Assembly: GCA_043732185.1 (NCBI GenBank)
Contig: JAYTHY010000051.1
Coordinates: 1-35,067, forward strand
Length of the DNA stretch: 35,067 bases
Direction of reading: 5' to 3'
Source: Fibrobacteria bacterium
GTDB lineage: Bacteria; Fibrobacterota; Fibrobacteria; UBA11236
This document shows positions 3,001 to 17,766 of the stretch, piece by piece; the stretch's first letter is position 1, and each line of letters opens with the position of its first letter. The position numbers and the translations under genes are program-made. A model generated the notes under the pieces. That model was not told the DNA's origin. It was given only the letters and a program-made list of their open reading frames with translations, and searched no databases.

Positions 3001-6000
3001 GCCAGCTGTCACGCCGGATAGGGAATTAAAATTCACTGTCCCACCCGCCAACCGCAATGTCGAAGAGCCAAAATCTAAGCTGCCACCGGTAAAACTAGGT
3101 GAAGCAGTAAAGATGTGAATCAAGGAGGCGCCAAGATTTAAGGCGCCATTAGTCAAGGTCAAGGCCGAACCGGTGATTCCGTTTGTTACCAGGGTCCAGC
3201 CTCCGCCTGAACCTGCAAAGGTAAGGTTATTTACGGTCGAGAGAATATTTACGGTTTTTCCCGTAGCCGTGGCATCAAAAGTAATGGTTCCGCTGCCTGG
3301 GGTTAAGCTGCCCCCGGTTTGAGCAAAATTTCCTCCTGCATAGAAGACCCTGGCGCCTCCCGGACAGGTCAAGGTACCGGCGGTCATTGTGAAATTACCA
3401 TTAACGTCCATGTCACCGGTGGAGGATGAAATCGTTCCGCCTGTTTGATTGAAAGTATTAACCGTAAGCGTTCGCACATTGGTGGAAAGGTCCAACGTGC
3501 CTGCAGTCATGGCAAAGGTTCCGTTTACGGTAAGGTGTGAAGTTGCCGTCCAGGCTCCGCCAATTCCATTGAGCGTTAGATTGTTGAAGCTTCCGGCCGC
3601 ATCAATTGATTTTCCCGTGGCCGTTCCATTGAAAACCACCGTTCCGGAATTCATATTAACCGTCGCTCCTGAATGGGTATAGGAGCCCCCGATTGAGAAG
3701 CTACCACTGGGATTTGTTACAGTACCTGAGCTGAAAGTGACATTACCTGCGATACCTAAAGAACCACTTCCTGCATCCAGGAAACCGCCGTTGACTTGCA
3801 AATTTCCGCTGGCTGTTATCGTTAAGGCATTCGTAGAAATGTCAAAGGCACCGGCCGAAATATCCAAGTTGGCGGTGGACAGGTTGTTTGAAACCAGCAC
3901 AACCGTTCCGGAACCGGATTTAGCAATGGAAGGAAAGGTGGAACCGGCTTTGGGTGTAAAAGTCTGGGCGGAACTTCCTATGAAATTGAGCGTACCTGTG
4001 CCAGGGGTAAGCGTACTAAGTAAATGCAAATCAACTGTCGCGGCCTGCACACCTAAAGTCGAGGAACCAAAATTAAGTTCGCCTCCCGTCAAAGACAATG
4101 TGTTGGAAACAATATGGGTAAGACCGGTTCCCAAGTTCAGGACACCGGCAGTCAGAGTAAGACTGTTGAGTGAATTGGCGCTGGAAAGCGTCCAGGTTCC
4201 CGTGCCCACTTTTGTCAAATCGCCGGTACCCGAACCAAGGACGCCTGCAAAGGTACCACCGCTGCTACCTCCCAGCGTCAATCCGAAGGCTGCGCCGGAA
4301 ATGGTACCCGTATTGCTCAGGGCAATGGTGCCGGATTGACCTACAATACTGGTAGCCCCTGCTAGGGAAATTTGTCCTACAAAAGTTGCCGGCGTGGCGC
4401 TGGTATTGATCAGCGCGCCTTCAGTGGATACGCCAGTTCCATTCAGATTCAATGTTTCGGTCGTGGTATAATTCTGCCCGTTGAGGTCTAAATTGGCTCC
4501 GGTAGAAACATAGGTGCCTGAGGCATTGCTCCCTAATGCGGAGGTGCTGCCCAATTTTAAGCTGCCTGCATTGACGGAGGTGGAACCGGTGTAGGTATTG
4601 GCACCGGACAAGGTAAGTGTGCCTGTGCCGGATTTTGTCACATAGCCGGTTCCGGAAATAACACCGGCATAGGCCCCTGGACTGCTATTGTCTCCACCAA
4701 TGGTAAGCGTTGCTGCCCCCAGGGTAATGTCACCACCGGTTGCACCGCCGCCGGTTAAGGAGCCTATGGAGTTAGCATAACCGGTTATATCTAGACTGGT
4801 GCCAGCGACATTGGCCAGCGTCACAGCGGAATTGACACCAAAGGCCTGGGCTGAACCGGCTGCCAAGGTTCCTGCGTTCACGGTGGTTGACCCGGTATAG
4901 GTGTTGGCCCCGGAAAGTGTCCAGCTTCCAGTTCCAGCCTTAGTCAAGCTTCCCGTGCCTGTGGATATTATTCCGGAAAGGGTACCATTCGCGCTCCCTG
5001 ACAATGTCAAATCGAAGGTCCCGCTGATTGAACCGGTCAATGAAATCTGTCCACTAGCGGCTACTATGCTACTGGCACTTGCCAAGGTGATGTTTCCTGA
5101 AAGGCTTGCCGAGGTACCAACGCCATTCATTATTGCACCACCGCTGGAGATGCCGGTACCATTCACGGTTATCGCTTCTGCACCCACAGTTTGGCCATTT
5201 AAGTCCAAGGTCCATCCGGAAGCAATTGTGGTTCCTCCACTTGTACTTCCCAAGGCAGACGCACTCCCCATTTTTATTTTTCCGGAACTGATAGTGGTCT
5301 GGCCCCCATAGGTATTGGCCCCCGACAGAGTGAGGGTGCCTCCACCCAGCTTGGTAACATCTACGGTACCAGAACTATTGCCGATGGTTCCGGAAAAGGT
5401 CGTAGAAGTGCCGTCACTGCCAATCGAAAGAGTATAAGTACCCGCTCCGCTGGTATTGTTTACCGTACCTGATCCGGCCAACGACCCGATTCCTTCAGTA
5501 TAGCCACCTAGATCTAACGTGCCGTTAACGGTTACGGCGCTTCCATCATAAATAACCCCTGCGGCCCCTAGTTTCAGTGTTGATCCAGAGTTAATTGTTG
5601 TTGCACCGGTGTAGGTATTTGTTCCGTTTAGAATGAGAGTGCCGGCGGCACCCATTTGGGCCACGGCGCCCGTACCAGCGATAACGGTTGCAAAATCTGT
5701 ACCTTGCGTGATGGTATTGGTGCGGTTGAAAGCCAGCGTTGCATTGTTGGTAATGCCGCTGCTCGAGGAAAGAGCGCCAGTCGTTCCACCATTGCCGATT
5801 TGCAGCGTGCCGGAAGACACTGTGGTTGCACCCGTATAAGTGTTTGTGCCGGTAAGCGCTAGAGTGCCTGATCCAGTCTTTGTCATTGCTCCGGTTCCAG
5901 AGAGGACACCAGCATAGGCCGCCGGACTCGTGCCGTCGCCGCCTATTGTCAAAGCAGCTGCCCCAAGGATGACATTGCCCCCAGATCCGCCTCCTCCAGT

Positions 6001-8256
6001 CAAGGACCCAATGGAGTTGGAGAAGCCGGTGATATTGAGGCTGGTGCTTGCGGCATTGGCTATAGTCACTGCGGAGTTGACACCAAAAGCTTGTGTCGAT
6101 CCCGCCGCAAGGGTTCCTGCATTCACGGTTGTCGTACCCGTATAAGTATTGGACCCTGACAAAGTCAAAGTTCCCGTACCGGTTTTGGTCACTCCCCCGG
6201 TGCCGGATATGATTCCACTATATGGCCCAGGGCTACTATTGTCCCCGCCTACGGTCAAGGTCGCGGCCCCCAGAGTCACGTCACCGCCTGAGCCACCGCC
6301 ACCTGCCAAGGATCCAATTGAAGTGGAAAACCCCGTGATATTGAGTAGCGCACCTGCGGCGTTGATCAGCGTTACCGCCGAATTCGAACCAAAGGCTTGG
6401 CTCGAACCGGCCGCCAGGGTTCCTGCATTCACGGTTGTTGCTCCAGAGTAAGTATTTATCCCATTTAACATTAGGGTTCCTGTCCCCGCCTTGGTAATGC
6501 CGCCCGTTCCGCTGATTACCCCGCCTAGAGTCAAAGTGGAGGCCGAGACTGTGATTTGTCTTGCCCCTGAACCCAAAGAAATGGCACCGGTTCCGATGTT
6601 CAGTGCCTGTGAACCTGAAAACGTAAAGTTGCCAGTCCATGTTTGTGGATTATTAGAGGTGAGGGTTATGGAACCGGCAGAAGTATTATCAAGGGTCATA
6701 CCAGCTGCAATAGTTAAAGTACTGGCAGAACCACCCAAAGCCGTGGTGCTGTTGACGTTTATGGTACCGGCATTCAAATTAGTTCCACCAGTATACGTAT
6801 TCGCGCCACTTAATGTCCAAGTACCGGTCCCGGCCTTCGTCACTGCAGTGGTGCCGGAGCCATTAACTATAGTGCCTGAAAGTACTCCCCCACTGGCTGT
6901 AGAGCCTTGCAAAGTCAGGATCTTGCTACCCACTCCAGTCGCAGTAAGCGCACTGGTGAAAGTCAAAGTACCCGATCCGCTTTGATCTACACTGCCGCCA
7001 CCAGTGGTACCTGCTAGATTGAGAACCCGATCGGTGGATTGGACCGCGCCCGTATATACAAGTGTGCCTGTCGTTGTTGTGCTGCCCAATGCGATGGTGC
7101 CATTGCCTGCCGTGGTTGGCGCACCCAGAGCACTTGATCCGGCCGAAACGGATTTTATAGTATTTACACTCAGTATGCCGTCAGCGATGATGGTTATCCC
7201 CGTATAAGTATTCGAACCGGACAATGTCCAAGTACCCGGGTCCTGCTTAGTGAGAGACCCTGTTCCTATTCCCACCACACCGGAAATGGATCCACCTGCC
7301 CCACCGCCCAGCGTCAGATTTAAACTGGACGCGGAAACACTTCCGCTGATATCGATAGTTCCGCCGCCGCCTTTGATACTGGCTGCGGTGCCAAGGGTTA
7401 TGTTACCCGCATACGTCGCGGGTGCGGCACTGTCATTCACAAGGGCACCAATATTTCCAGGGCCCAGGCCATTCAGAGTGAGGTTTTCCGAGGATAAATA
7501 AACTTGGCCATGTAAATCCATGGCAGCACCAGTTGAAATGGTTGTCCCACCGGAAGTGGAGCCTAAGGCCGAGGCATTATTCAATATCAGTTTTCCACTG
7601 GAGACGGAAGTTGAGCCTGAATACGTGTTGGCTCCGTAGAGAACCAAATTTCCAGTGCCGGATTTTGTCAAGTTGCCGCTTCCACTGATGATTCCATCCA
7701 ATTCGGTATTGCCATTACTGGACACAGTCAATGCAAAGCTTCCCATCGATATCGCGCCAGTGATGACCAGCAGTCCTCCTGAAGTTGTGGCGATGGTGGC
7801 GCCGGAGGTGGTGATCGTTATGGCATTGGAAATTGTCATCACGCCACTTGAAACGCTGCTGGAGATGGCCGTGGCCCCGCCACTCAGTTGTAACGAATTG
7901 CCTCCAATGACAAAAGGGCCGGAGCCGCCACTAAAACTAATCGAGTTGAATGTAGTGCCCGAAGTAAAATCATTGTTAGGAGTCAATCGTGTAGTTCCAG
8001 CGAAAACGATGTCGTCACCGGCTGATGGCGCAACACTTCCGACCCAATTTGCCGCCGTAGTCCAGTTGTCGCTGGCGCCGCTGCCATTCCATGTTCGCGT
8101 AACCGCAGAAGCAAATCCGACAAGTATAAAAAGGATAAATATTGATTTTGACATTAGGGGCACTCGAGAAATTCTATAGTCACGATTGTGACCGAAAAGA
8201 CCAGCAATGGCCCAGTTGCTTTCCGGTTTTTGAATTTTCCAAATGCGATGAATCAT
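1..8256 (-). CDS. Giant secreted beta-helix / PATR-repeat adhesin-like protein, 5' part only (>2752 aa, open through position 1)
   Basis: One frame stays open from ATG 8256 (AGGA SD just upstream) or ATG 8154 to the window edge, which is why the track omits it. Signal peptide MSKSIFILFILVGFASA is followed by TRTWNGSGASDNWTTAANW. The protein is G/T/S/A-rich with about 11 xTKxGxGTLxLSGxNTYTGxTxVxxGxL motifs. Confidence 0.93.
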   Translation of the reverse strand, partial: MIHRIWKIQKPESNWAIAGLFGHNRDYRISRVPLMSKSIFILFILVGFASAVTRTWNGSGASDNWTTAANWVGSVAPSAGDDIVFAGTTRLTPNNDFTSGTTFNSISFSGGSGPFVIGGNSLQLSGGATAISSSVSSGVMTISNAITITTSGATIATTSGGLLVITGAISMGSFALTVSSNGNTELDGIISGSGNLTKSGTGNLVLYGANTYSGSTSVSSGKLILNNASALGSTSGGTTISTGAAMDLHGQVYLSSENLTLNGLGPGNIGALVNDSAAPATYAGNITLGTAASIKGGGGTIDISGSVSASSLNLTLGGGAGGSISGVVGIGTGSLTKQDPGTWTLSGSNTYTGITIIADGILSVNTIKSVSAGSSALGAPTTAGNGTIALGSTTTTGTLVYTGAVQSTDRVLNLAGTTGGGSVDQSGSGTLTFTSALTATGVGSKILTLQGSTASGGVLSGTIVNGSGTTAVTKAGTGTWTLSGANTYTGGTNLNAGTINVNSTTALGGSASTLTIAAGMTLDNTSAGSITLTSNNPQTWTGNFTFSGSQALNIGTGAISLGSGARQITVSASTLTLGGVISGTGGITKAGTGTLMLNGINTYSGATTVNAGTLAAGSSQAFGSNSAVTLINAAGALLNITGFSTSIGSLAGGGGSGGDVTLGAATLTVGGDNSSPGPYSGIISGTGGVTKTGTGTLTLSGSNTYTGTTTVNAGTLAAGSTQAFGVNSAVTIANAASTSLNITGFSNSIGSLTGGGGSGGNVILGAAALTIGGDGTSPAAYAGVLSGTGAMTKTGSGTLALTGTNTYTGATTVSSGTLQIGNGGTTGALSSSSGITNNATLAFNRTNTITQGTDFATVIAGTGAVAQMGAAGTLILNGTNTYTGATTINSGSTLKLGAAGVIYDGSAVTVNGTLDLGGYTEGIGSLAGSGTVNNTSGAGTYTLSIGSDGTSTTFSGTIGNSSGTVDVTKLGGGTLTLSGANTYGGQTTISSGKIKMGSASALGSTSGGTTIASGWTLDLNGQTVGAEAITVNGTGISSGGAIMNGVGTSASLSGNITLASASSIVAASGQISLTGSISGTFDLTLSGSANGTLSGIISTGTGSLTKAGTGSWTLSGANTYTGSTTVNAGTLAAGSAQAFGVNSAVTLANVAGTSLDITGYANSIGSLTGGGATGGDITLGAATLTIGGDNSSPGAYAGVISGTGYVTKSGTGTLTLSGANTYTGSTSVNAGSLKLGSTSALGSNASGTYVSTGANLDLNGQNYTTTETLNLNGTGVSTEGALINTSATPATFVGQISLAGATSIVGQSGTIALSNTGTISGAAFGLTLGGSSGGTFAGVLGSGTGDLTKVGTGTWTLSSANSLNSLTLTAGVLNLGTGLTHIVSNTLSLTGGELNFGSSTLGVQAATVDLHLLSTLTPGTGTLNFIGSSAQTFTPKAGSTFPSIAKSGSGTVVLVSNNLSTANLDISAGAFDISTNALTITASGNLQVNGGFLDAGSGSLGIAGNVTFSSGTVTNPSGSFSIGGSYTHSGATVNMNSGTVVFNGTATGKSIDAAGSFNNLTLNGIGGAWTATSHLTVNGTFAMTAGTLDLSTNVRTLTVNTFNQTGGTISSSTGDMDVNGNFTMTAGTLTCPGGARVFYAGGNFAQTGGSLTPGSGTITFDATATGKTVNILSTVNNLTFAGSGGGWTLVTNGITGSALTLTNGALNLGASLIHIFTASPSFTGGSLDFGSSTLRLAGGTVNFNSLSGVTAGTGTLEFTGSSAQAFTPKSTYTLPQILQSGTGTTTLSSYDLLSGNLNVTAGEFNIGTRTVTVSGNLAVSTGTLTASNGALVVNGNVSMTSGTLSAPSGTFSVTGSLTIASGSTLVHNNGTLVLNGTATGKNLDIFPTLYNLTVNGSGGAWTVVNNPLQVASILSLTDGGLDMGSLTHSIGSVTSSGGVATLDFGTSTLNVTVGNAVFSGLATLTAGASSTLGFTAASGIQSVEALAATTHPHITHTGAGTLRLMNASMLCRSFTQSAGTINFNSYNFTTNNSGNFTLNNGTSTSISGLVGRIVTVAGNATLSGASSSDRLDLNPGSPWYLRTTGTASVSLASVDYSDASGYSTVTCSNCANGGSTTNWTFGVTWTGGGGDANWTTATNWASNSVPTSLDAVIFNSTATAATLDAAASVKSISFTSGYTGTFSFSSNTLSILNGNADFSSGGTLTAGTGTLAFTSSSAQTFIPKSGATFPTITQNGAGGTTITINALTAGNLNLTSGTLNLGAGFTHTVAAISGAGGLDFASSNLNATGNVNLSSATITATSSNTLTFTGSSAQTYTPKSSVTALNLTQNGAGGTTVSSYDFTTPTLTITAGTLNLGTSRVHTVSTALTITGGGLDFSSSTFKVAAATVNLNGLTTLSNTSGTLEFSGGSAQTFTPKASTTHPSLNQNGAGGTTIATNNLTADVLTITSGTFALGTGLTHQVTALATTAGTLNFGTSTLQVSGDANLAGLSTLTPGTGILALNKSSGTQILTPKVTVAHPAITHNSAGTLQLATNTLNCASFSQNAGSLDFNGRNITTTGNFTVTNGTATTFTGITGRTLTVGGAASFTGTSSANRINLNPGAAWTLTVTGALTGSFASVDFSDASTSTGPGTCTSCANMGSNNNWIFNVGWDGGAGDGLWSSANNWTSDYVPATTDVVSFNATSSAATLDVAASVKAITFTSGYTGTFSFSSNTLTINSGNADFQSGGAITAGTGALAFTGSSAQTFIPKS
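301..1884 (-). repeat. One complete 527-aa super-module of the giant protein, containing ~95-98-aa sub-repeats
   Basis: The boundary motif CxxCANxGSxxNWxFxVxWxGGxGDxxWxxAxNW occurs at 1927-1938 (CSNC) and 346-357 (CTSC), exactly 1581 nt apart. SAQT(F/Y)xPK-type motifs recur at ~1590, 1305, 1010 and 720. Confidence 0.85.
4190..7680 (-). repeat. Array of ~11 passenger-associated transport repeats (autotransporter-associated beta-strand repeat)
   Basis: Examples: LTKSGTGNLVLYGANTYSG (~7670), VTKAGTGTWTLSGANTYTG (~6845), VTKTGTGTLTLSGSNTYTG (~6190), LTKAGTGSWTLSGANTYTG (~4950), VTKSGTGTLTLSGANTYTG (~4640). The last copy (~4220) is degenerate. Confidence 0.9.
4600..6455 (-). repeat. Three closely related ~101-aa units within the PATR region (~6150-6455, ~5845-6150, ~4600-4905)
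   Basis: Each unit reads TTVNAGTLAAGSxQAFGxNSAVT...SIGSLxGGGxxGGxxxLGAATLTxGGDxxSP; the similarity is also visible in the DNA (repeated 'ggttcctgc(a/g)ttcacggt'). Confidence 0.85.
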
Positions 8257-9148: not shown

Positions 9149-9739
9149 ATGAGTAAATTGAATTGGAAAAATTTCAGGACAACTGCGGCGGCGATAGCTA
9201 TAGCAGCGTCCATTTCTCATGGAGCCGTGGCTACGGTAGGTGGTAACGTGCAGGTGACCAATCTTCTCAACAGCAATGCTCAGTTGGGTTTGGATTTGAC
9301 ATCAGCCGGTACGCTTATCGAAATCGCCAATTTTACCATCACTCAGAATACTACCTCATATGACTTGACAATGGTGTTTGCAAATGGAGGTCGGTTTCTG
9401 CGTGTGGGCGGCGGCGGCACGGCTGGTGAGCGTATTGATATGACGGCGCTTACCATCAACCCAATTAGTGGTACTTTAGGCACCAGCATTGCAGCACTAA
9501 ATCCAGCTTCAGCGGTTACCCTTGCTGGTCCAACTCCTTGGACTACTGTAACTGGTGGATTGCTTACTGGTGCTCTCGTACCAGGTACGTCGCAATCCAT
9601 TACGTGGAATCCTGCCAATCAGATCACCCCGACTGTCGGCTATATATTGTCGCTACGGGCATCGTGGGCAGCAGGCACAAACGTGATGTCCGGGTTGTAT
9701 ACGGAAACGATCACTGCCACACTAACTGCGACGCTTTGA
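9149..9739 (+). CDS. Chaperone-usher pathway major pilin-like subunit, copy 1
   Basis: Strong SD (TAAGGAG), 25-aa signal peptide, beta-rich 171-aa mature part, C-terminal GLYTETITATLT motif typical of CU pilins; lies upstream of chaperone and usher. Confidence 0.82.
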   Translation: MSKLNWKNFRTTAAAIAIAASISHGAVATVGGNVQVTNLLNSNAQLGLDLTSAGTLIEIANFTITQNTTSYDLTMVFANGGRFLRVGGGGTAGERIDMTALTINPISGTLGTSIAALNPASAVTLAGPTPWTTVTGGLLTGALVPGTSQSITWNPANQITPTVGYILSLRASWAAGTNVMSGLYTETITATLTATL

Positions 9740-9781
9740 TTCTGCCTAACGCGTGATTTTTAAAAATGAAAGGAATTTAGT

Positions 9782-10372
9782 ATGGGCAACTTGACTTTGA
9801 AAAGGTTAAGAAATTCAACTCTGGCTTTGGCTATTGCAGCTTCTCTATCCCATGGTGCAGTGGCTACTGTCGGAGGTAACGTACAGGTGACTAATCTGCT
9901 GAACAGCAATGCTCAGTTGGGTTTGGATCTGACATCGGCTGGTACACTTATTGAGATTGCAAATTTCACTATCACTCAAAATACCACGTCATATGATTTG
10001 ACAATGGTGTTTGCCAATGGTGGACGGTTTCTCCGTGTGGGTGGTGGTGGCACGGCCGGTGAGCGAATTGATATGACGGCACTTACCATCAATCCCATTA
10101 GTGGAACTTTGGGCACCAACGTTGTGGCCCTAAATCCTGCTTCTGCAGTTGGACTTACGGGTCCAACTCCTTGGACTACGGTAACGGCAGGTCTGCTAAC
10201 TGGCGCACTTGTTCCAGGTACCTCGCAATCCATTACGTGGAACCCTGCCGATCAAATTACTCCAACGGTCGGTTATATATTATCGTTGCGGGCATCGTGG
10301 GCAGCAGGCACAAACGTAATGTCCGGCTTGTATACCGAAACGATTACTGCCACCTTAACAGCCACCCTTTAA
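9782..10372 (+). CDS. Chaperone-usher pathway major pilin-like subunit, copy 2
   Basis: Same length as copy 1; the mature region differs at only 7 residues; SD AAGGA. Confidence 0.82.
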   Translation: MGNLTLKRLRNSTLALAIAASLSHGAVATVGGNVQVTNLLNSNAQLGLDLTSAGTLIEIANFTITQNTTSYDLTMVFANGGRFLRVGGGGTAGERIDMTALTINPISGTLGTNVVALNPASAVGLTGPTPWTTVTAGLLTGALVPGTSQSITWNPADQITPTVGYILSLRASWAAGTNVMSGLYTETITATLTATL

Positions 10373-10404
10373 GCACTTTTTAGTCGGCTTTTATGGGTTT
10401 TTTA

Positions 10405-10440
10405 AAAAGGGAGGGGTCTTTCCCCTTCCTTTTACATTTT
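10405..10440 (+). terminator. Intrinsic terminator / attenuator after the major pilins
   Basis: Stem AAAAGGGAGGGG, loop TCTTT, stem CCCCTTCCTTTT, followed by ACATTTT. Confidence 0.75.
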
Positions 10441-10444
10441 TCAA

Positions 10445-10978
10445 ATGATAAAATTTAAAACGATGGTCAAGAGAATTGGATTTAGATGGAGACCCAAATG
10501 GGGGGGGTGGGGTCCGTGCTGCCTGCTTGCCTTCATGCCGATACAAGCCGCGGTTGGAGATAACACTGTAAACTCACTGCAATGTCAGGGCGTCTTTGGC
10601 ATAGTTTTTAATCAGGCTGCTGTAGCACAACAATTGGCTGTTTATTTGATCAACAACGACTATACTAACGCGTTTGACGTAACTTTTCATTTCGCTAATA
10701 AGGGAAAGTTTAAAAGTGGAAGCAATGAGATTGCAATCTCTTCTATAATATTAAACAAGCTTTCCGGCACACTGGGCGCGGGTCTAACAAATCCAGCTAC
10801 AAATCTTGCAGTGACACTGGATGGATCCGGCGACTGGATTTGGAACCCTGGAACGACTCAGACCACCGAGACTACTTTACTACTTCTAGAACTCAAAGCA
10901 AGCTGGCCAGATGGTTCCAATTCCATGGCCGGTTTTTATTCGGAGACCATAACTGCCACAATTTCAGTGGGTTTGTAA
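10445..10978 (+). CDS. Minor pilin-like subunit (divergent paralog of the two major pilins)
   Basis: Shares FANxGxF, SGTLG, WNP, LxASW and GxYxETITAT with the major pilins; atypical signal peptide; start could be 10463. Confidence 0.75.
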   Translation: MIKFKTMVKRIGFRWRPKWGGWGPCCLLAFMPIQAAVGDNTVNSLQCQGVFGIVFNQAAVAQQLAVYLINNDYTNAFDVTFHFANKGKFKSGSNEIAISSIILNKLSGTLGAGLTNPATNLAVTLDGSGDWIWNPGTTQTTETTLLLLELKASWPDGSNSMAGFYSETITATISVGL

Positions 10979-11012
10979 AATTTTGGAGACATAAATTCTT
11001 TCAGGAGTCCTT

Positions 11013-11819
11013 ATGACAAGGCTGTATTTGGGTTTAATGGTCGGATGCCTTTTGGTAGTCCGCAGCTGGGCGGTTAGTTTTTCATTGGATACATGGATAA
11101 TCACCCTCGAGCCGGATTTAAAAAAGTCCAGTCAAGTGATCACGCTCAAATATGTCGGAAGTGAATTTAGCGGGCCCAAATCTGCTGCAAAATCCCTCTT
11201 GCCTATACCTGTGGAGTTTTCCATCTACCCACGTTTCATTGATTTGGATGGCAAGGTCACTTATGATACATCCAAGGGAGCACCCGAATTCATGATCTAC
11301 CCTTCTCAGGTCATCTTATATCCTGGGGATATTCAAAAGATTCAGATCCAATGGATATCTGATAAACCTCTTACCAAAGAAATAATTTTTGGACTCATTG
11401 CCCTCCAGGTGCCAGTAAACCTTGAAGGCAATGCCAAAGACTTAAAAACACCGCAAGGCGGTGTGACTATTTTGACACGGTATGAGGGAATAATTGTGGT
11501 TAGGCCAAAAGGTACAAGGGCGGAAGTCGTTGTTGATACTCTTTATCCAATAATCGATAGCGTCGGCAACGCCACTTTGGTCATGCTTCTTAAAAATAAT
11601 GGTACCGGTATGCAATTGACTAAAAATATGCGGTTGACTGTTGCGCCTTTGGATGCCAACGGTCGTATCATCCTAAAAGATAAAATCAATTTCGTCCCCG
11701 AATTGAGCTACACTGCCACTAAGCACGCGCTTTTTGCAGGCCAAACTCGGCGTTACATGCTGCCGTGGCCAAAACAAATTCCTGTGGGCCGCATTCAGGT
11801 CATTCCTGAATTCCCATAA
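11013..11819 (+). CDS. Periplasmic pilus assembly chaperone (PapD/FimC/CsuC-like)
   Basis: SD AGGAG, signal peptide ending SWA, and motifs IYPSQVILYPGDIQKIQIQW, QVPV, RYEGIIVVRP, LKNNGT. Confidence 0.85.
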   Translation: MTRLYLGLMVGCLLVVRSWAVSFSLDTWIITLEPDLKKSSQVITLKYVGSEFSGPKSAAKSLLPIPVEFSIYPRFIDLDGKVTYDTSKGAPEFMIYPSQVILYPGDIQKIQIQWISDKPLTKEIIFGLIALQVPVNLEGNAKDLKTPQGGVTILTRYEGIIVVRPKGTRAEVVVDTLYPIIDSVGNATLVMLLKNNGTGMQLTKNMRLTVAPLDANGRIILKDKINFVPELSYTATKHALFAGQTRRYMLPWPKQIPVGRIQVIPEFP

Positions 11820-12021
11820 TTATTTTTCCTAATTTCAATTCATAATAGAGTTAGCACTCTAAAAACATCCCTGAATTGTAATGCCCCTTTGGCTTGATTG
11901 AGAACTTGCTGCAATGGTAAAATATCATTGTCTATTGCGAAGTTTTCGATTTAATTGATTTTTGACATTAAGTTTGGGTTCCCTTTTTTTTAAAGCAGAG
12001 CTCGCATTGTTTGAAAAGAAT

Positions 12022-15000
12022 ATGTTAAAAACCTTACACCTTTTAGGATTCCTTATCGGCATTTTTGTGTCGCCTTTTCTTCAAGCTGCCGATTCTGGAT
12101 TTCGTCAAGTCGATGCGACTCTAATTGTGAATGGCAAGGCAAAAGGACTAATGCTATTGGAGTGGTTTCCGGGAAAAGGTCCATTCCATTTTCCTGGTCC
12201 CTTGGTTCTCATGGCACTATCTGATCTTGTTCCCCCTCGGTTGATACTGGAACTTGATTCTAAACTTTCCTCGGCAGGATTTCTGACCAGCGACGATTTG
12301 CGTCAACTTGGTATTGGTGTAGAATATTCAAAGGTAAAATCCGAATTGCAGCTTTCCTACAAGGGTATTAAGGGGATATCTAAGTTGGTAACCGGAGATC
12401 CAAATTTACCAGAAACAAAATCCGGTCCTGAGAAATTATCTCCTTCCGCGTATAGGCAAGATACTATGAAGGCGACTTTAAACGATTCTTTGGATTTTCA
12501 GGTTCCTTTTTCGCAACCACCTGAACTCGTTACGAGCAAATTAGCCCATACCCCGAAGGAAGTTGAAAATCATATAGGTCTAAACCCAGTGCCCAACCCA
12601 GTGCCCAACCCAGTGCCAGCGCCTGACGCATTTGTTTCAAAGTCTAAATCGGTGCCAAATGCGGCACTGGCCCCCGCGACACCATTAACGGAATCAAAAG
12701 TACTCCCTGCAACTCCAATGGCCTCATCACAGGTAGTTGAAAAATCCGATGCAGCATCCCCTAAGTCCGTTGACACTTTATCTGAAAAACCAATAATGTC
12801 GACTTATTCCTATCCGGAATCCAGAGATGCACTTTTTAAATCGGTTTTTAAATCACAACCCCCTCCAATACCCGTAGATGTGGAGGTTTCCCTCCTGGTT
12901 GATGGGAACATTTGGGGGAAGGTTTGGATCAAGTTGACTGCACAAAAAGATGAGTTTTTTGTTTCTATGGATAAAATAAATTTGGCCTTGGAAGGTAGAG
13001 TATCCTCTGAAAATTTAAAAAATCTTGCTTTAACTAAAACTAAGGATGGCGTGGTGTCTGGAAAATCGATTTTGGCCCAAGGAATTGTACCTACTTTGAA
13101 GGCGAATGAATTCGAGTTGAATTTGCAATTGCCTAGCCAACTGCTCGCCACTCAAACACATAATCTCAGCAGCAGTGGTGACACCTTTGATCCGGCCGAT
13201 TATGATCAGCCAGCTTTTATTTCTGGGTATATCAATAGTCGCATAAAGCAGCTTTTACAATACCGTGAAATATCACCCAATGCTACAGTGAGCCAGACAT
13301 TTGCCTCAGCATACTTGAAGGGCAAAAACGATCACTTTCGACCGCCTTGGGTTTTGGATTTTAATGGAGCGATAAATATAAAAGGCGTGGTACTAGAAAG
13401 TCGGGCAACTTATGTTGAGCCTCAGGAGAATATACCATCGGAATTAGTGAGAAACGATATTCGTGTGGTTTATGATCAACCTAGTCAGGCTATACGATAT
13501 ACCGCGGGTGATTTGCTTTTTCCTACTTCCGGGTACCAAACTGTTCTTAAAATGGGGGGCATCGGAGCCGCACGTGATTTTAGTTTGCAGCCGAATTTAA
13601 TAGTATATCCTACCAAAGATTATGAATTCTATTTAGAAAATCAAGCAGAGGTTAGAATTTACGTAAACGCTACGCTGATCCGTACTTTGATTTTGGAAGC
13701 AGGCTCGCATAATTTGCAAGGAATTCCAATGTCTATGGGAGAAAGTGAAATAAAAATTGAAATATTGGATGCTACAGGGCGTACACAGACAGTGGTCTTC
13801 AATTTTATCCATGAAACGTCCTTGCTGGCCAAAGGTCGCTCGATATTTTCCGGAAATTTTGGATTTCCAGGTCAACTTTATCCTCTGCAGGATAATTGGA
13901 GTATTGTAAATGCGGATTTTGATTTTCTTGGATACCGTTACACGATAGATAAATTAATCACCGCTCTTGCGTACCAGAGAGGATTGACCGATGTATTGAC
14001 TGCCGGCGTTTATTCCCAAACATTGAACCAGGATGGTTTGATAGGCCTTAATTTAACTCGGGCTTTTTCGATTGGAACAATGAACGCAGAAGCCGCCCTA
14101 AGTCAGACGGATTCTATAGGAATAGATTTTGGGTTGAATGTCAGTTATGCTAATGTGCCTAGGCCAACGGAGACAAATAATCCCATTAGCTGGCGGGTTA
14201 AAGGGGAATATATTGGAGAAAACTTTTCCCGTATCCAACCTGTAATTACTAGAAGTACCCAGGCTTGGATTTTTTCATTTGGACTTGGAAAAAATCTGGA
14301 TATTATTGATGTAAATCTCGGGGGAGGCTACAGTATAAATAGGGGCAGAAAAAATGTTTATAATGCTTCCTTTGGCGCCCATAAGAATTTATCCAAAGGC
14401 TTTTCTGGGAATATGATAATCAACCATTTTTTTGATCAAAATGACATCGCCAATACCACCTTTACAGCGGTCTTTGCATATAATTTTTCCAGTGGCATCA
14501 ATAACTTTAGTGCGGGTCAGCGGTTTTTGACTCATCCGCCCGAGGCTTCGGATACAATTTCCGCTGCTGTCACTGCACAACCAGAAAAGTGGGATAACTC
14601 AACCGATATAACATGGGACTATAATAGTTCCGCTCCCTTTCCGGATAACCCAAAGGTTACCGGGAGTGTCAGTCTTGCACCTACCTATAACGACTATAGT
14701 ATCCGTACTGGCTTTCGAGGTAATCAGGGAATGCTGGAAATAAATGGACGTCGAAACGAGCCAGGAAAAAATTATGGAAACATAGTTGAGAATCAATTGG
14801 AGTTCGTCGGCCAATCATCCTTGGTATTTGTAAACGGGAGTTTTGGAATATCGAGACCGGTACAAAACGGTTTTCTACTTGCTAAAGGGGTGAAAAACTT
14901 AAAGCATACCAATATTACCATCAACCAGTTTGAAATCGGATATGATGCGCAATCGAATTTATTGGGTCCCGCTGTTCTGCCTTCCCTTTTTCCCTATTCC

Positions 15001-15384
15001 GCCAAAACTATTCGAATCAGTACCATTGATGCGCCGCTGGGATCGTCCGTGGAAAAAAGCATTTTTTATCTGTACCCTCGCTATATGAGCGGCTTTTTGA
15101 TCAAGGTAGGTACGGATGGCGATGTTATTGCAATGGGGACTTTCAGTGACAGGGTGGGAAAGCCTTTGGAGTATAAGGTCTTAAATTTATACTCTATTGA
15201 CGATTCAAAGGTGGAACCGCTAAAAGCCTTTACCAATGCTTCTGGTCGGTTTCAGTTTCCATCTATGAAACCAGGTAAGTGGCGCTTGGAAGCCGTTGAT
15301 TTGGGTTCCACCACCTTCGTTATTCCAAAAGATATAATTGGTATTTACCAACTCGGGGAATTGAAACTGGACCCACTTAAATAA
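12022..15384 (+). CDS. Fimbrial outer-membrane usher with duplicated N-terminal domain
   Basis: Signal peptide from ATG 12022 (the track's TTG 11962 is probably too early). Usher motifs: RYTAGDL, MGGIGAARDFSLQP, plug-like AEVRIYVN...GSHNL..IPMSMGESEIKIEILDATG, C-terminal FTNASGRF. Confidence 0.88.
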   Translation: MLKTLHLLGFLIGIFVSPFLQAADSGFRQVDATLIVNGKAKGLMLLEWFPGKGPFHFPGPLVLMALSDLVPPRLILELDSKLSSAGFLTSDDLRQLGIGVEYSKVKSELQLSYKGIKGISKLVTGDPNLPETKSGPEKLSPSAYRQDTMKATLNDSLDFQVPFSQPPELVTSKLAHTPKEVENHIGLNPVPNPVPNPVPAPDAFVSKSKSVPNAALAPATPLTESKVLPATPMASSQVVEKSDAASPKSVDTLSEKPIMSTYSYPESRDALFKSVFKSQPPPIPVDVEVSLLVDGNIWGKVWIKLTAQKDEFFVSMDKINLALEGRVSSENLKNLALTKTKDGVVSGKSILAQGIVPTLKANEFELNLQLPSQLLATQTHNLSSSGDTFDPADYDQPAFISGYINSRIKQLLQYREISPNATVSQTFASAYLKGKNDHFRPPWVLDFNGAINIKGVVLESRATYVEPQENIPSELVRNDIRVVYDQPSQAIRYTAGDLLFPTSGYQTVLKMGGIGAARDFSLQPNLIVYPTKDYEFYLENQAEVRIYVNATLIRTLILEAGSHNLQGIPMSMGESEIKIEILDATGRTQTVVFNFIHETSLLAKGRSIFSGNFGFPGQLYPLQDNWSIVNADFDFLGYRYTIDKLITALAYQRGLTDVLTAGVYSQTLNQDGLIGLNLTRAFSIGTMNAEAALSQTDSIGIDFGLNVSYANVPRPTETNNPISWRVKGEYIGENFSRIQPVITRSTQAWIFSFGLGKNLDIIDVNLGGGYSINRGRKNVYNASFGAHKNLSKGFSGNMIINHFFDQNDIANTTFTAVFAYNFSSGINNFSAGQRFLTHPPEASDTISAAVTAQPEKWDNSTDITWDYNSSAPFPDNPKVTGSVSLAPTYNDYSIRTGFRGNQGMLEINGRRNEPGKNYGNIVENQLEFVGQSSLVFVNGSFGISRPVQNGFLLAKGVKNLKHTNITINQFEIGYDAQSNLLGPAVLPSLFPYSAKTIRISTIDAPLGSSVEKSIFYLYPRYMSGFLIKVGTDGDVIAMGTFSDRVGKPLEYKVLNLYSIDDSKVEPLKAFTNASGRFQFPSMKPGKWRLEAVDLGSTTFVIPKDIIGIYQLGELKLDPLK
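12583..12617 (+). repeat. 12-bp in-frame tandem repeat (AACCCAGTGCCC x~3, encoding NPVP) in the usher linker
   Basis: Directly visible in the sequence. Confidence 0.9.
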
Positions 15385-15577: not shown

Positions 15578-17506
15578 TCAAGTCTCCGGCACATAGGCGC
15601 GTCCTTCCACAAATATCTTGAACAACTCGGAGTCAATTTTCCCCCCTTTGACTTCGAGTCCAATGATTTCCAAGGCTTTTTCCGTAGGCATGGCCTTTTT
15701 ATAGGGTCGGTCCGAAGCCGCTAAGGCATCGAACATATCGCAAATGGTCATGATTTGGGCTGGCAAGGGGATGGTGTCACCTTTAAGCTGACGGGGATAG
15801 CCGGAACCGTCCAGTTTTTCATGATGGGAAAAGGCGATCATGGCTACCTGGCGCAGGTCCTGGGTCCAAGGAATTTTGGATAGAAATTTATAGGTATGGG
15901 AGACATGGGAGTTGATTTCCACCCTTTCCGTTTCGCTCAGGGTCCCCGAAGGGATGAGCAGCCGGGACAATTCTTCGGACCTTAAAAAGGGTTCCTGTGT
16001 CCCGTCTATTCCCAGGTAGGTATGATTGCCGATGCTTTCCAGGATTTGCAGCATTGCAGAATCGAGACGCGACGGTTCGTTAGCCTTAATAATATGGGAA
16101 TGGCACATGTCGATGCGCGACAGTTTTTCTTTTTCCTCCTCTTCCAGTTTATTCAGCGCGAATTCTATTTCTTCGCGTTGGCCAGTAGAGAGTACATTCA
16201 CCTTAGCCACTGCCGTTTCCCAGTGGATGGTTCTTTTGATAAAGTCCGATCGTTCGCGAATACGATCCATTTCTTCCGGGAAAAGCTTTTTGGCTTTAGT
16301 GAGGATATGCTCCCGCACGCCGATTTTTCCAAAGTCATGCAGTAGGGCGGCGTAGCGCATTTCGCGCATCTGTGGTTCCGTAAGGCGCACTTCCCGAAAC
16401 TTGCCAGTGTTTTCCCGTCCCACGCAATCTGCCAGGCGGACACAATAGGCTGCCACACGATTGGAATGTCCCGAAGTAGTTGGGTCTCGGGATTCAATCG
16501 CACTGACACTGGCGTTGATGAAACCTTCGAAAAGTGCCTGTATATCGAGTTCGTATTGGGCATTGAGCAATGCAACAGATGCTTGTGACGCCAGGGAGAG
16601 GGAGAGGTTGACGTCTTCCAGTCGGTAGGCCACAACCTGTTCATCAGCCGCTTCGATGGACGTGATGGGCCGGTTTTTAAATCGACATTTGTTGATGAGC
16701 TGGATGGCGCCCACTACCTGATTGTGATGATCCAGCATCGGTAGGGTCAGCATGGAACGCGTTCGATATCCGGAAGCTTTGTCAAAGCCGGCATTGTGTT
16801 TGAATTTGGCTGCGGGATCAATTCCATAGACATCGGGAATATTCAGGGCTTGGTTTTCCAGCATGGAAAAGCCAATGATGGAGGCATGATTCGCTTCCAT
16901 CACAATTTCAGAAAAATCGTATGCGACGGATGCATTGCGGGTCAGCTTGAAGCGGATGCGTTTGTCGGCCCAGTAGTCTCCTTTTCCCTCCAATGCGCCG
17001 GGGTTGGTCTCCACCAGAAAAAGGCAACTGGCGTCGCTGCCAGTCAGCTCCATGGCCTTGTCGAGAATCAAACTGAGCAAGGTATCGAGATTTTTCTCTG
17101 ACATCAATGCCACGCCAATCTTATTCAGTTGACGGTTTCTGGCTTCGGTAATGGCGTTGGTATTATGTAGGGTCAGACATTTTTCCTTAAGCTCCAAAAG
17201 GCGGACCATATGCTGACAGGCCAAAGCTATTTCAGTTGGTGTAGGCTGGGCTGAAAGACAGATATCGACCCATTTAGGCACGGCGGTTTCCTCGTCGCCC
17301 TGTGGATTCCAATAAAGTGTCCCGACATGCTGGAAGAGGAATTCAAAGTCCATTTCTTTGGCGAGCGAATCCGGTCCAATGACTAGAATACTGAAGGGAT
17401 AAATATCCTTTAAGTTTTTGGAGGAGCTATAGGTAAATCTTTGTCCTGACAGGAGCTTTTCGGGAAATTGGAGGGCCGTAAAATTATGGATTAAAATGGG
17501 AGGCAA
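15578..17506 (-). CDS. GAF + HD-GYP domain cyclic di-GMP phosphodiesterase
   Basis: GAF motifs (FDKASGYRTRSMLTLPM, GAIQLINK) and HD-GYP motifs (GHSNRVA, LHDFGK, HHEKLDGSGYP, DMFDAL, RPYK). TTG 17506 follows GGAGGTG; the alternative start is GTG 17554. Confidence 0.92.
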   Translation of the reverse strand: MPPILIHNFTALQFPEKLLSGQRFTYSSSKNLKDIYPFSILVIGPDSLAKEMDFEFLFQHVGTLYWNPQGDEETAVPKWVDICLSAQPTPTEIALACQHMVRLLELKEKCLTLHNTNAITEARNRQLNKIGVALMSEKNLDTLLSLILDKAMELTGSDASCLFLVETNPGALEGKGDYWADKRIRFKLTRNASVAYDFSEIVMEANHASIIGFSMLENQALNIPDVYGIDPAAKFKHNAGFDKASGYRTRSMLTLPMLDHHNQVVGAIQLINKCRFKNRPITSIEAADEQVVAYRLEDVNLSLSLASQASVALLNAQYELDIQALFEGFINASVSAIESRDPTTSGHSNRVAAYCVRLADCVGRENTGKFREVRLTEPQMREMRYAALLHDFGKIGVREHILTKAKKLFPEEMDRIRERSDFIKRTIHWETAVAKVNVLSTGQREEIEFALNKLEEEEKEKLSRIDMCHSHIIKANEPSRLDSAMLQILESIGNHTYLGIDGTQEPFLRSEELSRLLIPSGTLSETERVEINSHVSHTYKFLSKIPWTQDLRQVAMIAFSHHEKLDGSGYPRQLKGDTIPLPAQIMTICDMFDALAASDRPYKKAMPTEKALEIIGLEVKGGKIDSELFKIFVEGRAYVPET

Positions 17507-17766
17507 TTCTGATTCACCTCCGCCTTTGGCGTTTTGAGATTGGAAAAGGGGCACGCTGGATTATATCCATTCTCTAGGCCGGTTTCAGCTAGGGTTTCCA
17601 TTGTGCCATTGTCCTTTTACTGTTGGATGGGCGACGGATCCGGATCAATACTCTATAATGGACGGTTAGGCTCCATTCACGAATTGTCAAATGGGCTTTA
17701 TCTTTGGCAAAAAGTATTTTACACTGTAATCAATGAATTCTAATTCTGGGTTCGGGTAGCTACGCC

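What the first reader, a model, noticed from the sequence alone, without database searches (positions are those of the whole stretch)
12100..13135. Usher with two tandem N-terminal domains joined by a ~170-aa Pro/Ser/Thr-rich linker
Seen: VDATLIVNGKAKG...LMALSDLV...LGIGVEYSKVKSELQL (~12109-12360) aligns without gaps to VEVSLLVDGNIWG...NLALEGRV...QGIVPTLKANEFELNL (~12880-13131), with 17 of 84 identities by hand count. The low-complexity linker contains the NPVP repeat and makes the usher ~1120 aa, well above the usual ~800-900. Established: the single usher NTD recruits chaperone-subunit complexes. Inference: a second NTD on a long tether could pre-capture subunits, span a wide periplasm, or handle an unusual substrate.
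Basis: partly seen in the sequence, partly recalled or inferred. Interest (0 to 1): 0.7.

Follow-up and report, generated by a model that had tools for sequence, protein, structure and literature searches.

The report
Pilus usher with duplicated docking domain
The outer-membrane pore that assembles pili in this uncultured Fibrobacteria bacterium carries a second copy of its substrate-docking domain on a long floppy tether, a layout kept in its close relatives that we did not find described in the papers we searched.

Summary
ORF 12022-15384 (+) encodes a 1120-aa, very divergent chaperone-usher pore. It follows three pilin-like genes and a PapD-like chaperone.

Residues 28-113 (NTD1) and 286-371 (NTD2) align without gaps at 17 of 84 identities. 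BLASTP sees nothing, but the ungapped score lies 5.7 SD above shuffles. Profiles from orthologs match at 98.7-99% probability (E 1e-16 to 1e-18). Both AlphaFold models have the same strand/helix order. Both have solved usher N-terminal domains (Caf1A, FimD, PapC) as their top structural matches.

NTD2 is the canonical domain and keeps the family's conserved N-terminal tail motif. NTD1 is a tail-less copy held by a ~140-aa Pro/Ser/Ala-rich, poorly conserved linker.

The layout recurs in every usher of this type found in one Fibrobacterota family (11 genomes, 3 genera). It occurs in 9 of 154 proteins of the wider usher family (query plus the best 153 hits), with probably one independent duplication.

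NTD1 evolves about 3-5 times faster than NTD2 but is maintained.

The function is inferred, not shown. The most likely role is an auxiliary tethered docking site for chaperone-pilin complexes. This is a new variant of a known machine, and five literature searches found no description of it.

The parts
9149..9739 (+). pilin-like subunit A (196 aa)
   Evidence: Signal peptide and a conserved C-terminal strand. Homologues lie upstream of the chaperone in related loci. No Pfam family matches.
9782..10372 (+). pilin-like subunit B, tandem paralogue of A (90% identical)
10445..10978 (+). pilin-like subunit C (177 aa), the best conserved subunit, always next to the chaperone
11013..11819 (+). periplasmic PapD-like chaperone (268 aa)
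   Evidence: PapD_N at E 0.0087 in the window protein; 6 of 11 orthologues match, best E 2.6e-5. It lies directly upstream of the usher in all related loci that have flanks.
12022..12087 (+). signal peptide of the usher (aa 1-22); ATG start preferred over the upstream in-frame TTG at 11962
   Evidence: Read from the sequence; cleavage site inferred.
12103..12360 (+). NTD1: distal, tail-less copy of the usher N-terminal domain (aa 28-113)
   Evidence: AF2 pLDDT 84.5. The top 10 VIA matches are all usher NTDs, Z 7.7-5.6; the next unrelated match has Z 4.2. hhalign to NTD2 and to single-NTD profiles.
12361..12804 (+). low-complexity Pro/Ser/Ala/Thr-rich linker (aa 114-261)
   Evidence: Composition. 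Identity to orthologues is 6-29% with 4-33% gaps, against 20-57% and no gaps in NTD1. Spacing in relatives (end of the NTD1 match to start of the NTD2 match) is 12 to about 260 aa.
12583..12617 (+). NPVP x3 repeat inside the linker (12-nt unit, 2.9 copies)
12805..12876 (+). conserved N-terminal tail motif of the canonical NTD (aa 262-285; S-R-D/E-x-L-F-x-x-V/I-F-K ... P-P-x-P)
   Evidence: Conserved in orthologues (21-75% identity). In single-NTD relatives it sits directly after the signal peptide. The solved NTDs align only from their residue ~28 onward, so this stretch takes the place of their N-tail.
12877..13134 (+). NTD2: canonical, pore-proximal usher N-terminal domain (aa 286-371)
   Evidence: AF2 pLDDT 75. 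Foldseek: ranks 1-14 all usher NTDs, E from 2.5e-3, probability up to 1.00. VIA: Z 8.9-4.9 for 13 usher entries.
13135..15384 (+). rest of the usher: barrel, plug and C-terminal domain (aa 372-1120, with stop)
   Evidence: phmmer to 3503 family members, of which 21 of 33 scanned reach the Pfam PF00577 cut-off. Weak TcfC E-set hit at aa 556-609 and CarboxypepD_reg-like hit at aa 1063-1119 of the 1140-aa TTG-start frame, i.e. aa 536-589 and 1043-1099 of P0001.

Best explanation
Window 9149-15384 is a very divergent chaperone-usher pilus operon of an uncultured Fibrobacteria bacterium. It encodes three pilin-like subunits, a PapD-like chaperone and an usher.

The usher arose by duplication of its periplasmic N-terminal domain. 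The pore-proximal copy (NTD2, with the family's conserved N-tail) is the canonical docking site for chaperone-pilin complexes. The distal copy (NTD1) is a folded usher NTD without an N-tail. It hangs at the mature N-terminus on a ~140-aa disordered Pro/Ser/Ala-rich tether.

Shown: homology, shared predicted fold, the tether's composition and poor conservation, and conservation of the layout in one clade.

Inferred mechanism: NTD1 is an auxiliary, probably lower-affinity or more selective docking site. Because it sweeps a large periplasmic volume, it collects chaperone-pilin complexes, or one class of them, raises their local concentration at the pore and passes them to NTD2.

My odds are about 0.95 for the anatomy and about 0.4-0.45 for this mechanism. 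The confidence given below is for the mechanism.
For: Usher identity:
- 3503 relatives at E <= 1e-3.
- 21 of 33 scanned relatives reach the PF00577 gathering score, and 27 of 33 list it at E <= 0.01.
- The operon order subunits-chaperone-usher is conserved in related loci.
- The chaperone matches PapD_N in 6 of 11 orthologues.

Duplication:
- Ungapped alignment z = 5.7.
- hhalign 98.7-99.0%, E 1.8e-16 to 7e-18, with controls at 0.2-0.3%.
- The NTD1 profile also matches the single NTD of ~830-aa ushers at 98.8%, E 1e-16.
- The only second hit of the NTD1 profile in the whole genome is NTD2.

Fold:
- Both models have the element order b-b-b-a-a-b-a-b-b.
- NTD1: the top 10 VIA rows are all usher NTDs (Caf1A-N Z 7.7, rmsd 2.9, 84 aligned; FimD-N Z 7.6), and the next unrelated row has Z 4.2.
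- NTD2: Z 8.9 to Caf1A-N (rmsd 3.0, 89 aligned) and 8.3 to FimD-N (rmsd 3.1, 91 aligned).

Maintenance:
- NTD1 is gap-free and 20-57% identical across orthologues, against 6-29% for the linker.
- dN/dS is 0.20-0.52.
- The layout is present in all 11 genomes of family f1 that hold the usher (3 genera) and in 10 further database proteins.
- A probably independent duplication in P0128 gives the same layout, again tail-less.

Role of an usher NTD: it recruits chaperone-subunit complexes (PMC12122975 introduction, passages read; PMC9452303, passages read).
Against: - NTD1 has no N-tail: only ~5-7 residues precede its first strand (about 7 after the inferred signal-peptide cut; 4 ahead of the first residue aligned to the solved NTDs). 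In classical ushers the N-tail gives about 60% of the binding surface (PMC9452303, Extended Data Fig. 8 legend). Equal-strength binding is therefore unlikely.
- NTD1 accumulates amino-acid changes 3-5 times faster than NTD2 among five same-genus orthologues (dN 0.30-0.58 against 0.07-0.16). dS is near saturation, so the ratios are rough.
- No binding evidence of any kind exists.
- Structural Z scores of 7-9 are middling by the tool's own note. The case rests on the clean separation from unrelated rows together with the profile homology.
- The models were built from alignments of only 10 sequences.
Confidence: 0.42

Rival explanations
1. NTD1 has been repurposed. It no longer docks chaperone-pilin complexes. 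Instead it binds another partner, such as the usher's own plug or C-terminal domain (gating or auto-inhibition), a second usher protomer, or another periplasmic or inner-membrane component. In that case it would act as a regulator or anchor.
For: NTD1 lacks the N-tail that dominates binding in classical systems (PMC9452303 passage). It evolves faster and has a long stem branch after the duplication. Other members of the family carry unrelated modules (SH3_3 x3, DUF5666) at the same tethered position, so the position is not reserved for substrate docking.
Against: No candidate partner is evident. The operon content in double-NTD loci and in the single-NTD locus L029 looks alike. The globular part of a classical NTD still supplies about 40% of the chaperone contact (PMC9452303 passage).
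Confidence: 0.28
2. Division of labour: NTD1 and NTD2 each recognise a different class of chaperone-pilin complex (for example the A/B-type against the C-type subunit, or initiator against rod). The duplicated domain would then set the order or stoichiometry of subunits rather than simply increasing capture. This is a special case of the best explanation, listed apart because it predicts selectivity.
For: The operon encodes two clearly different subunit classes, conserved across relatives. NTD1 and NTD2 have diverged to 17-20% identity.
Against: The single-NTD relative L029 still has a pilin-like gene, a chaperone and an usher. No data on specificity exist.
Confidence: 0.15
3. NTD1 is a functionless relic of a duplication, kept only as a folded cap on a spacer.
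For: It evolves faster than NTD2 and has lost the tail motif.
Against: It has been kept without gaps or stops in 3 genera and in more than 20 independent assemblies. dN/dS is below 1. The model is confident, pLDDT 84.5. The same layout probably arose a second time in P0128.
Confidence: 0.1
4. The similarity is due to chance or composition, and there is no duplication.
For: BLASTP finds nothing between the two segments, and identity is only 20%.
Against: as set out above.
Confidence: 0.02

Closest known systems
Classical chaperone-usher ushers FimD, PapC and Caf1A (solved: 1ZE3, 3BWU, 3RFZ, 6E14, 7LHG, 4B0E, 4B0M)
   Same: Same machine type: N-terminal docking domain, barrel with plug, C-terminal domain(s), and an operon with a PapD-like chaperone and pilins. 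Both NTDs of this protein have these solved NTDs as their best structural matches.
   Different: The known ushers have one NTD; this one has two, 150 aa apart. Sequence similarity is too low for a direct match: there is no PDB hit with the family profile at E <= 1, and no PapC_N or PapC_C match in the query (E <= 1) or in 33 relatives (E <= 0.01). The C-terminal domain resembles CarboxypepD_reg instead.
P-usher CupB3 of Pseudomonas aeruginosa
   Same: It is an usher with an extra N-terminal periplasmic domain that widens what the pore can handle (PMC3031594, introduction passages read, citing Ruer et al. 2008, which I did not read).
   Different: The CupB3 extra domain is POTRA-like and serves a TpsA-like passenger. 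Here the extra domain is a copy of the usher's own NTD on a long disordered tether, and no TpsA-like gene lies in the operon.
Archaic (sigma) chaperone-usher systems, e.g. CsuC-CsuD of Acinetobacter and CupE
   Same: Phylogenetically widespread non-classical CU systems found outside Enterobacteria. The usher NTD is modelled as the recruitment site there too (PMC9452303, passages read).
   Different: Membership is not established. The 16 subunit homologues scanned hit no Pfam pilin family, including spore-coat-U, which I recall as the archaic subunit family. No double NTD is mentioned in the passages read.
Single-NTD members of the same unnamed usher family (e.g. P0002-P0004, P0018, P0033; ~800-870 aa)
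   Same: Same barrel, C-terminal domain, NTD and N-tail motif.
   Different: They lack NTD1 and the linker, and their N-tail follows the signal peptide directly.

Membership tests
Outer-membrane usher of the chaperone-usher pathway (Pfam PF00577) | Sequence match to the usher barrel/plug model PF00577 | tested here: met
   The query itself gives no PF00577 hit at E <= 1. It matches 3503 proteins at E <= 1e-3. Of 33 of these that were scanned, 21 reach the PF00577 gathering score (up to 84.8 bits), including P0006 (36.4 bits; E 4.7e-188 to the query). Membership therefore holds by transitive homology, not by a direct hit.
Outer-membrane usher of the chaperone-usher pathway | Periplasmic N-terminal domain with the usher-NTD fold | tested here: met
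   NTD2: Foldseek ranks 1-14 all usher NTDs (E from 2.5e-3); VIA Z 8.9 to 4B0E (rmsd 3.0, 89 aligned) and 8.3 to 1ZE3 (rmsd 3.1, 91 aligned). NTD1: VIA Z 7.7 to 4B0E (rmsd 2.9, 84 aligned) and 7.6 to 1ZE3 (rmsd 4.3, 88 aligned), with the top 10 rows all usher NTDs. These are predicted models, not experimental structures.
Outer-membrane usher of the chaperone-usher pathway | Encoded with a PapD-like periplasmic chaperone and pilin subunits | tested here: met
   Chaperone: PapD_N at E 0.0087 in the window protein (below the Pfam cut-off); 6 of 11 orthologues match, best E 2.6e-5. Three secreted ~180-aa paralogues lie upstream, and the order is conserved in relatives. That the subunits are pilins is inferred; no family match was found.
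Outer-membrane usher of the chaperone-usher pathway | Plug and C-terminal domains | tested here: inconclusive
   Only weak hits in the query: TcfC E-set (E 0.018) and CarboxypepD_reg-like (E 0.0041). Stronger CarboxypepD_reg hits occur in relatives. The full-length fold was not predicted.
Classical usher sequence families PapC_N / PapC_C (Pfam names and accessions recalled) | Sequence match to the classical NTD and CTD models | tested here: not met
   Neither family is listed for the query at E <= 1 or for any of 33 relatives at E <= 0.01. The fold is shared but not the sequence family.
P-usher (CupB3 type) | POTRA-like N-terminal domain and a TpsA-like passenger gene in the cluster | tested here: not met
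   NTD1's top structural matches are usher NTDs, and no POTRA entry appears among the rows shown. No large TpsA-like ORF lies in the operon.
Archaic (sigma) chaperone-usher systems | Subunits of the spore-coat-U / Csu type (family recalled) | tested here: inconclusive
   None of the 16 subunit homologues hits any pilin family in Pfam at E <= 1, and there is no PDB relative by profile. The subunit fold was not predicted.

The most novel reading that the evidence does not exclude
The tethered NTD1 is the first stage of a two-stage substrate relay. A periplasm-sweeping 'fishing line' on the usher catches chaperone-pilin complexes far from the pore and hands them to the pore-proximal NTD2. This solution evolved at least twice in this usher family. 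It is one instance of a general habit of the family of hanging periplasmic modules (NTD copy, SH3, DUF5666) ahead of the N-tail.
Probability: 0.3. Interest if true: 0.75.

Novelty: new variant of a known kind. Interest (0 to 1): 0.55.

Why it matters
The usher NTD is the entry point of the chaperone-usher cycle, and all mechanistic models assume one NTD per pore. A natural usher with two NTDs, one stripped of the N-tail and held on a long tether, is a ready-made experiment on two questions: how much the globular part of the NTD contributes on its own, and whether recruitment limits pilus assembly.

It also shows that a large, unnamed usher family (about 3500 detectable members) is modular at its N-terminus. 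That family escapes the classical NTD and CTD sequence models, and here it occurs in Fibrobacterota, a phylum in which the two papers that mention both terms do not treat chaperone-usher pili.

The practical gain is better annotation. These proteins are mostly labelled 'hypothetical protein' in the sources.

Tried and rejected
- BLASTP of the two segments: no alignment at E <= 100. Pairwise local search is too weak here; profiles were needed.
- Pfam and NCBIfam on the query usher: no usher model hit.
- Profile searches of the usher, chaperone and subunit alignments against PDB sequences: nothing meaningful. There were 0 hits, 1 chance hit at E 0.89, and 0 hits.
- First genome-contig scan with the single protein: found nothing. 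The permitted second scan with alignment A3 gave 12 loci.
- Complex prediction with chaperone + subunit A + NTD1 as partner: verdict 'no answer'. Runs scored 0.00, 0.49 and 0.47, and one control with an unrelated partner scored 0.32. I use it neither for nor against binding.
- Foldseek E-values for NTD1 are all above 0.1. The usher NTDs were already on top but not significant, so I relied on the VIA second look together with the profile homology.
- P0032 and P0092 entered my first NTD1 set by a coordinate rule, although they are single-NTD proteins. I removed them and repeated the comparison (then).
- P0140 looked by eye like a double NTD, but the profiles detect no second NTD in it. I dropped it.
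- Earlier notes of this scan: none for this place and none relevant by words.
- Rows left out: L009 and L011 were left out of the Python sets as duplicates of P0008 and P0009. The tree used 50 rows of about 99 columns, and 24 of its 47 inner branches are unresolved.
Full report
WHAT IS THERE

The finding lies in a 1120-aa ORF (window 12022-15384, +; P0001). The ATG at 12022 opens a typical signal peptide. An in-frame TTG at 11962 would add 20 residues.

Upstream on the same strand lie three secreted paralogues of 196, 196 and 177 aa (9149-9739, 9782-10372, 10445-10978) and a 268-aa protein with a weak PapD_N match (11013-11819; E 0.0087).

The large protein gives no usher hit in Pfam or NCBIfam. 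An exhaustive phmmer search nevertheless finds 3503 relatives at E <= 1e-3, 1636 at <= 1e-10 and 559 at <= 1e-30. Of 33 relatives that I scanned, 21 reach the gathering score of PF00577 (Usher) and 27 list it at E <= 0.01. None lists the classical PapC_N or PapC_C models, and the C-terminal domain resembles CarboxypepD_reg.

The order subunits-chaperone-usher is conserved in related loci, and 6 of 11 chaperone orthologues match PapD_N (best E 2.6e-5).

So this is a real but very divergent chaperone-usher operon. It holds the only usher of this kind in the 4.46-Mb genome. Related records are titled 'Fibrobacteria bacterium' MAGs.

CHECK OF THE OBSERVATION

The two segments are at the stated coordinates and share 17 of 84 identities without gaps. 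BLASTP reports no local alignment at E <= 100.

The ungapped BLOSUM62 score is +34, against -76.8 +/- 19.5 for 20,000 shuffles; none reached it. It is the best off-diagonal offset in the whole protein, the next best being -15.

With the query's NTD1 alone, phmmer hits the NTD2 of relatives (P0010, E 1.7e-8; P0006, 8.9e-5) and the only NTD of ~830-aa ushers (P0033, 3.5e-7). The query's NTD2 hits the NTD1 of relatives (P0007, 1.7e-6). These E-values are for a file of about 165 sequences.

Profile against profile:
- The NTD1 set (15 sequences, after I removed two single-NTD proteins that had slipped in) matches the NTD2 set at 99.0%, E 7.3e-18, over 99 columns.
- It matches a set of 18 single NTDs at 98.8%, E 9.9e-17.
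- A reversed alignment and a C-terminal-domain alignment give 0.3% and 0.2%.

In a six-frame search of the window's own genome, the NTD1 profile hits only NTD1 and window 12877-13158, which is NTD2 (E 1.5e-6).

FOLD

AlphaFold2 models were built from A1 and A2:
- NTD1: mean pLDDT 84.5, pTM 0.73.
- NTD2: mean pLDDT 75.0, pTM 0.57.

Both show the same element order, strand-strand-strand-helix-helix-strand-helix-strand-strand. NTD2 has an extra N-terminal helix.

For NTD1, Foldseek against the PDB puts Caf1A-N and FimD-N on top, but at E 0.12-0.43 and TM about 0.5. The VIA second look gives usher NTDs in all of the top 10 rows:
- 4B0E: Z 7.7, rmsd 2.9, 84 aligned.
- 1ZE3: Z 7.6, rmsd 4.3, 88 aligned.
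- Down to Z 5.6, then a drop to Z 4.2 for unrelated chains.

For NTD2, Foldseek ranks 1-14 are all usher NTDs (E from 2.5e-3, probability up to 1.00). VIA gives Z 8.9 (4B0E, rmsd 3.0, 89 aligned) down to 4.9 for 13 usher entries, then 4.5.

Z values of 7-9 are middling by the tool's own note. The argument is their clean separation from unrelated rows plus the independent profile homology.

THE TAIL AND THE TETHER

The solved NTDs align to NTD2 only from their residue ~28 onward (model residues 22-117), and to NTD1 from model residue 5. The 21-24 residues ahead of NTD2's first strand (aa 262-285, motif S-R-D/E-x-L-F-x-x-V/I-F-K ... P-P-x-P) therefore take the place of the classical N-tail.

This motif is 21-75% identical across orthologues. 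In the single-NTD relatives it follows the signal peptide directly.

NTD1 has nothing comparable. The second NTD of P0128 likewise matches the canonical profile only from position 25.

In classical systems the N-tail supplies about 60% and the globular part about 40% of the chaperone-binding surface (PMC9452303, Extended Data Fig. 8 legend; passage read).

Between NTD1 and the tail lie about 140 residues with P 15%, S 12%, A 9% and T 7%, including NPVP x3. They are 6-29% identical to orthologues with 4-33% gaps. By contrast, NTD1 (20-57%) and NTD2 (23-58%) align essentially without gaps.

The spacing between the two domain matches in relatives ranges from 12 aa (P0009) to about 260 aa (P0158). 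That the linker is disordered is inferred from composition, poor conservation and variable length; no call predicted it.

DISTRIBUTION AND HISTORY

- Close relatives: among 61 genomes, 12 (with the window's own) hold the usher, all in family f1 (11 of 31 other genomes; genera g1, g3, g5). Wherever the contig allows, the open frame is 1076-1201 aa.
- Phylum: across 296 genomes, the NTD1 profile gives two hits in one frame only in f1. Eleven genomes of four other families give a single hit, E 1e-6 to 1e-12, in frames of 1022-1296 aa, which I did not examine further.
- Protein database: ten further proteins match the NTD1 profile. Nine are 1062-1207 aa. Three are named by their sources as hypothetical proteins of Fibrobacteres/Fibrobacteria, three carry a JGI name (two 'outer membrane usher protein', one 'hypothetical protein') and four carry no name. 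One is a 237-aa ORF that stops in the linker.
- Wider family: of the query plus the best 153 members of the wider family, 9 have two NTD-like regions, 134 have one and 11 have none at i-E < 1e-3. Eight of the nine are the query and its closest relatives, which also trained the NTD1 profile. The ninth, P0128 (28% identical), is independent.
- N-terminal additions: twenty-four of 143 members have 150 aa or more ahead of the canonical NTD. Besides the NTD copies these include SH3_3 repeats (P0099) and DUF5666-like repeats (P0019).
- Tree: in a tree of 50 NTD sequences (99 columns; 24 of 47 inner branches unresolved), 12 of 16 NTD1s form one clade (support 99/97). P0128's NTD1 groups with its own NTD2 (95/82), together with the long-branched NTD1 of P0010. 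This suggests one old duplication in the Fibrobacteria clade and a separate one elsewhere, but the tree is rough.
- Rates: among five same-genus orthologues, NTD1 has dN 0.30-0.58 (dN/dS 0.20-0.52) and NTD2 has dN 0.07-0.16 (dN/dS 0.03-0.11). dS is near saturation, so the ratios are approximate.

HOW IT MOST LIKELY WORKS

Established for classical ushers: the NTD binds incoming chaperone-subunit complexes and hands them to the C-terminal domains (PMC12122975 introduction; PMC9452303).

NTD2, with its tail and its position next to the barrel, should do this here.

NTD1 is a maintained, folded, tail-less copy at the end of a long flexible tether. My preferred reading (odds about 0.4) is an auxiliary docking site of lower affinity or narrower specificity. 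It would gather chaperone-pilin complexes from a large periplasmic volume and feed NTD2.

The alternatives are:
- a repurposed domain with another partner (0.28);
- a strict split of subunit classes between the two NTDs (0.15);
- a relic (0.1).

No step of binding is shown. The single complex prediction returned no verdict and is not used.

COMPARISON WITH WHAT IS KNOWN, AND NOVELTY

The nearest known machines are the classical ushers FimD, PapC and Caf1A (one NTD) and the P-usher CupB3, which has an N-terminal POTRA-like domain for a TpsA-like passenger (PMC3031594, passages read).

Five full-text searches found no paper describing an usher with two NTDs. The term sets were:
- usher / chaperone-usher / N-terminal domain / duplicat;
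- P-usher / CupB3;
- Fibrobacter / chaperone-usher;
- usher / archaic / sigma-fimbriae / N-terminal extension;
- outer membrane usher with four phrasings of 'second/two/additional/tandem N-terminal domain(s)'.

For those searches I saw only listings and the cited passages. Subscription papers are outside the library, so prior description cannot be excluded.

I rate this a new variant of a known kind. The interest is moderate for a specialist and would be higher if the relay idea holds.

Noticed in passing
P0099, P0019, P0020, P0047 (relatives): Other members of the same usher family carry unrelated modules ahead of the conserved N-tail: three SH3_3 domains (P0099), DUF5666-like repeats (P0019, P0020) and an unnamed repeat (P0047). 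24 of 143 members have 150 aa or more ahead of the canonical NTD.
   Followed up: partly
P0128 (1044 aa): A distant family member (28% identical, high-GC) has its own tail-less second NTD and a Pro/Ser-rich linker. In the tree its NTD1 groups with its own NTD2, which suggests an independent duplication.
   Followed up: partly
P0164 (237 aa): A database ORF consists only of signal peptide, NTD1 and linker, and ends inside the linker. It may be a split gene, a frameshift in the repeat-rich linker or a truncated gene call.
   Followed up: no
window 9149-9739 and 9782-10372: Two tandem pilin-like genes are 90% identical at the protein level. None of the 16 subunit homologues matches any Pfam pilin family, so the subunits form an unnamed family.
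   Followed up: partly
window 1-8256 (-): A giant protein (more than 2751 aa, running off the window) has at least 10 PATR repeats (PF12951, E 2.8e-67). It is transcribed divergently from the pilus operon.
   Followed up: no
window 15578-17554 (-): A GAF + HD-GYP-type (HD_5) protein, probably a cyclic-di-GMP phosphodiesterase, lies convergent with the usher. A link to pilus or biofilm control is possible but untested.
   Followed up: no
L021:10274-10786:-, L024:10169-10660:-, L023:9646-10155:- and others: In several relatives a weakly pilin-like ORF lies just downstream of the usher on the opposite strand. The window has no such gene.
   Followed up: no
L027, L028: A record titled 'uncultured Bifidobacteriales bacterium' carries the Fibrobacteria-type double-NTD usher. 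The title or the binning of that MAG is probably wrong.
   Followed up: no
G086-G295: Eleven genomes of four other families of the phylum have one NTD hit each, inside frames of 1022-1296 aa. These are long ushers whose extra length is not a second NTD; I did not examine them.
   Followed up: no
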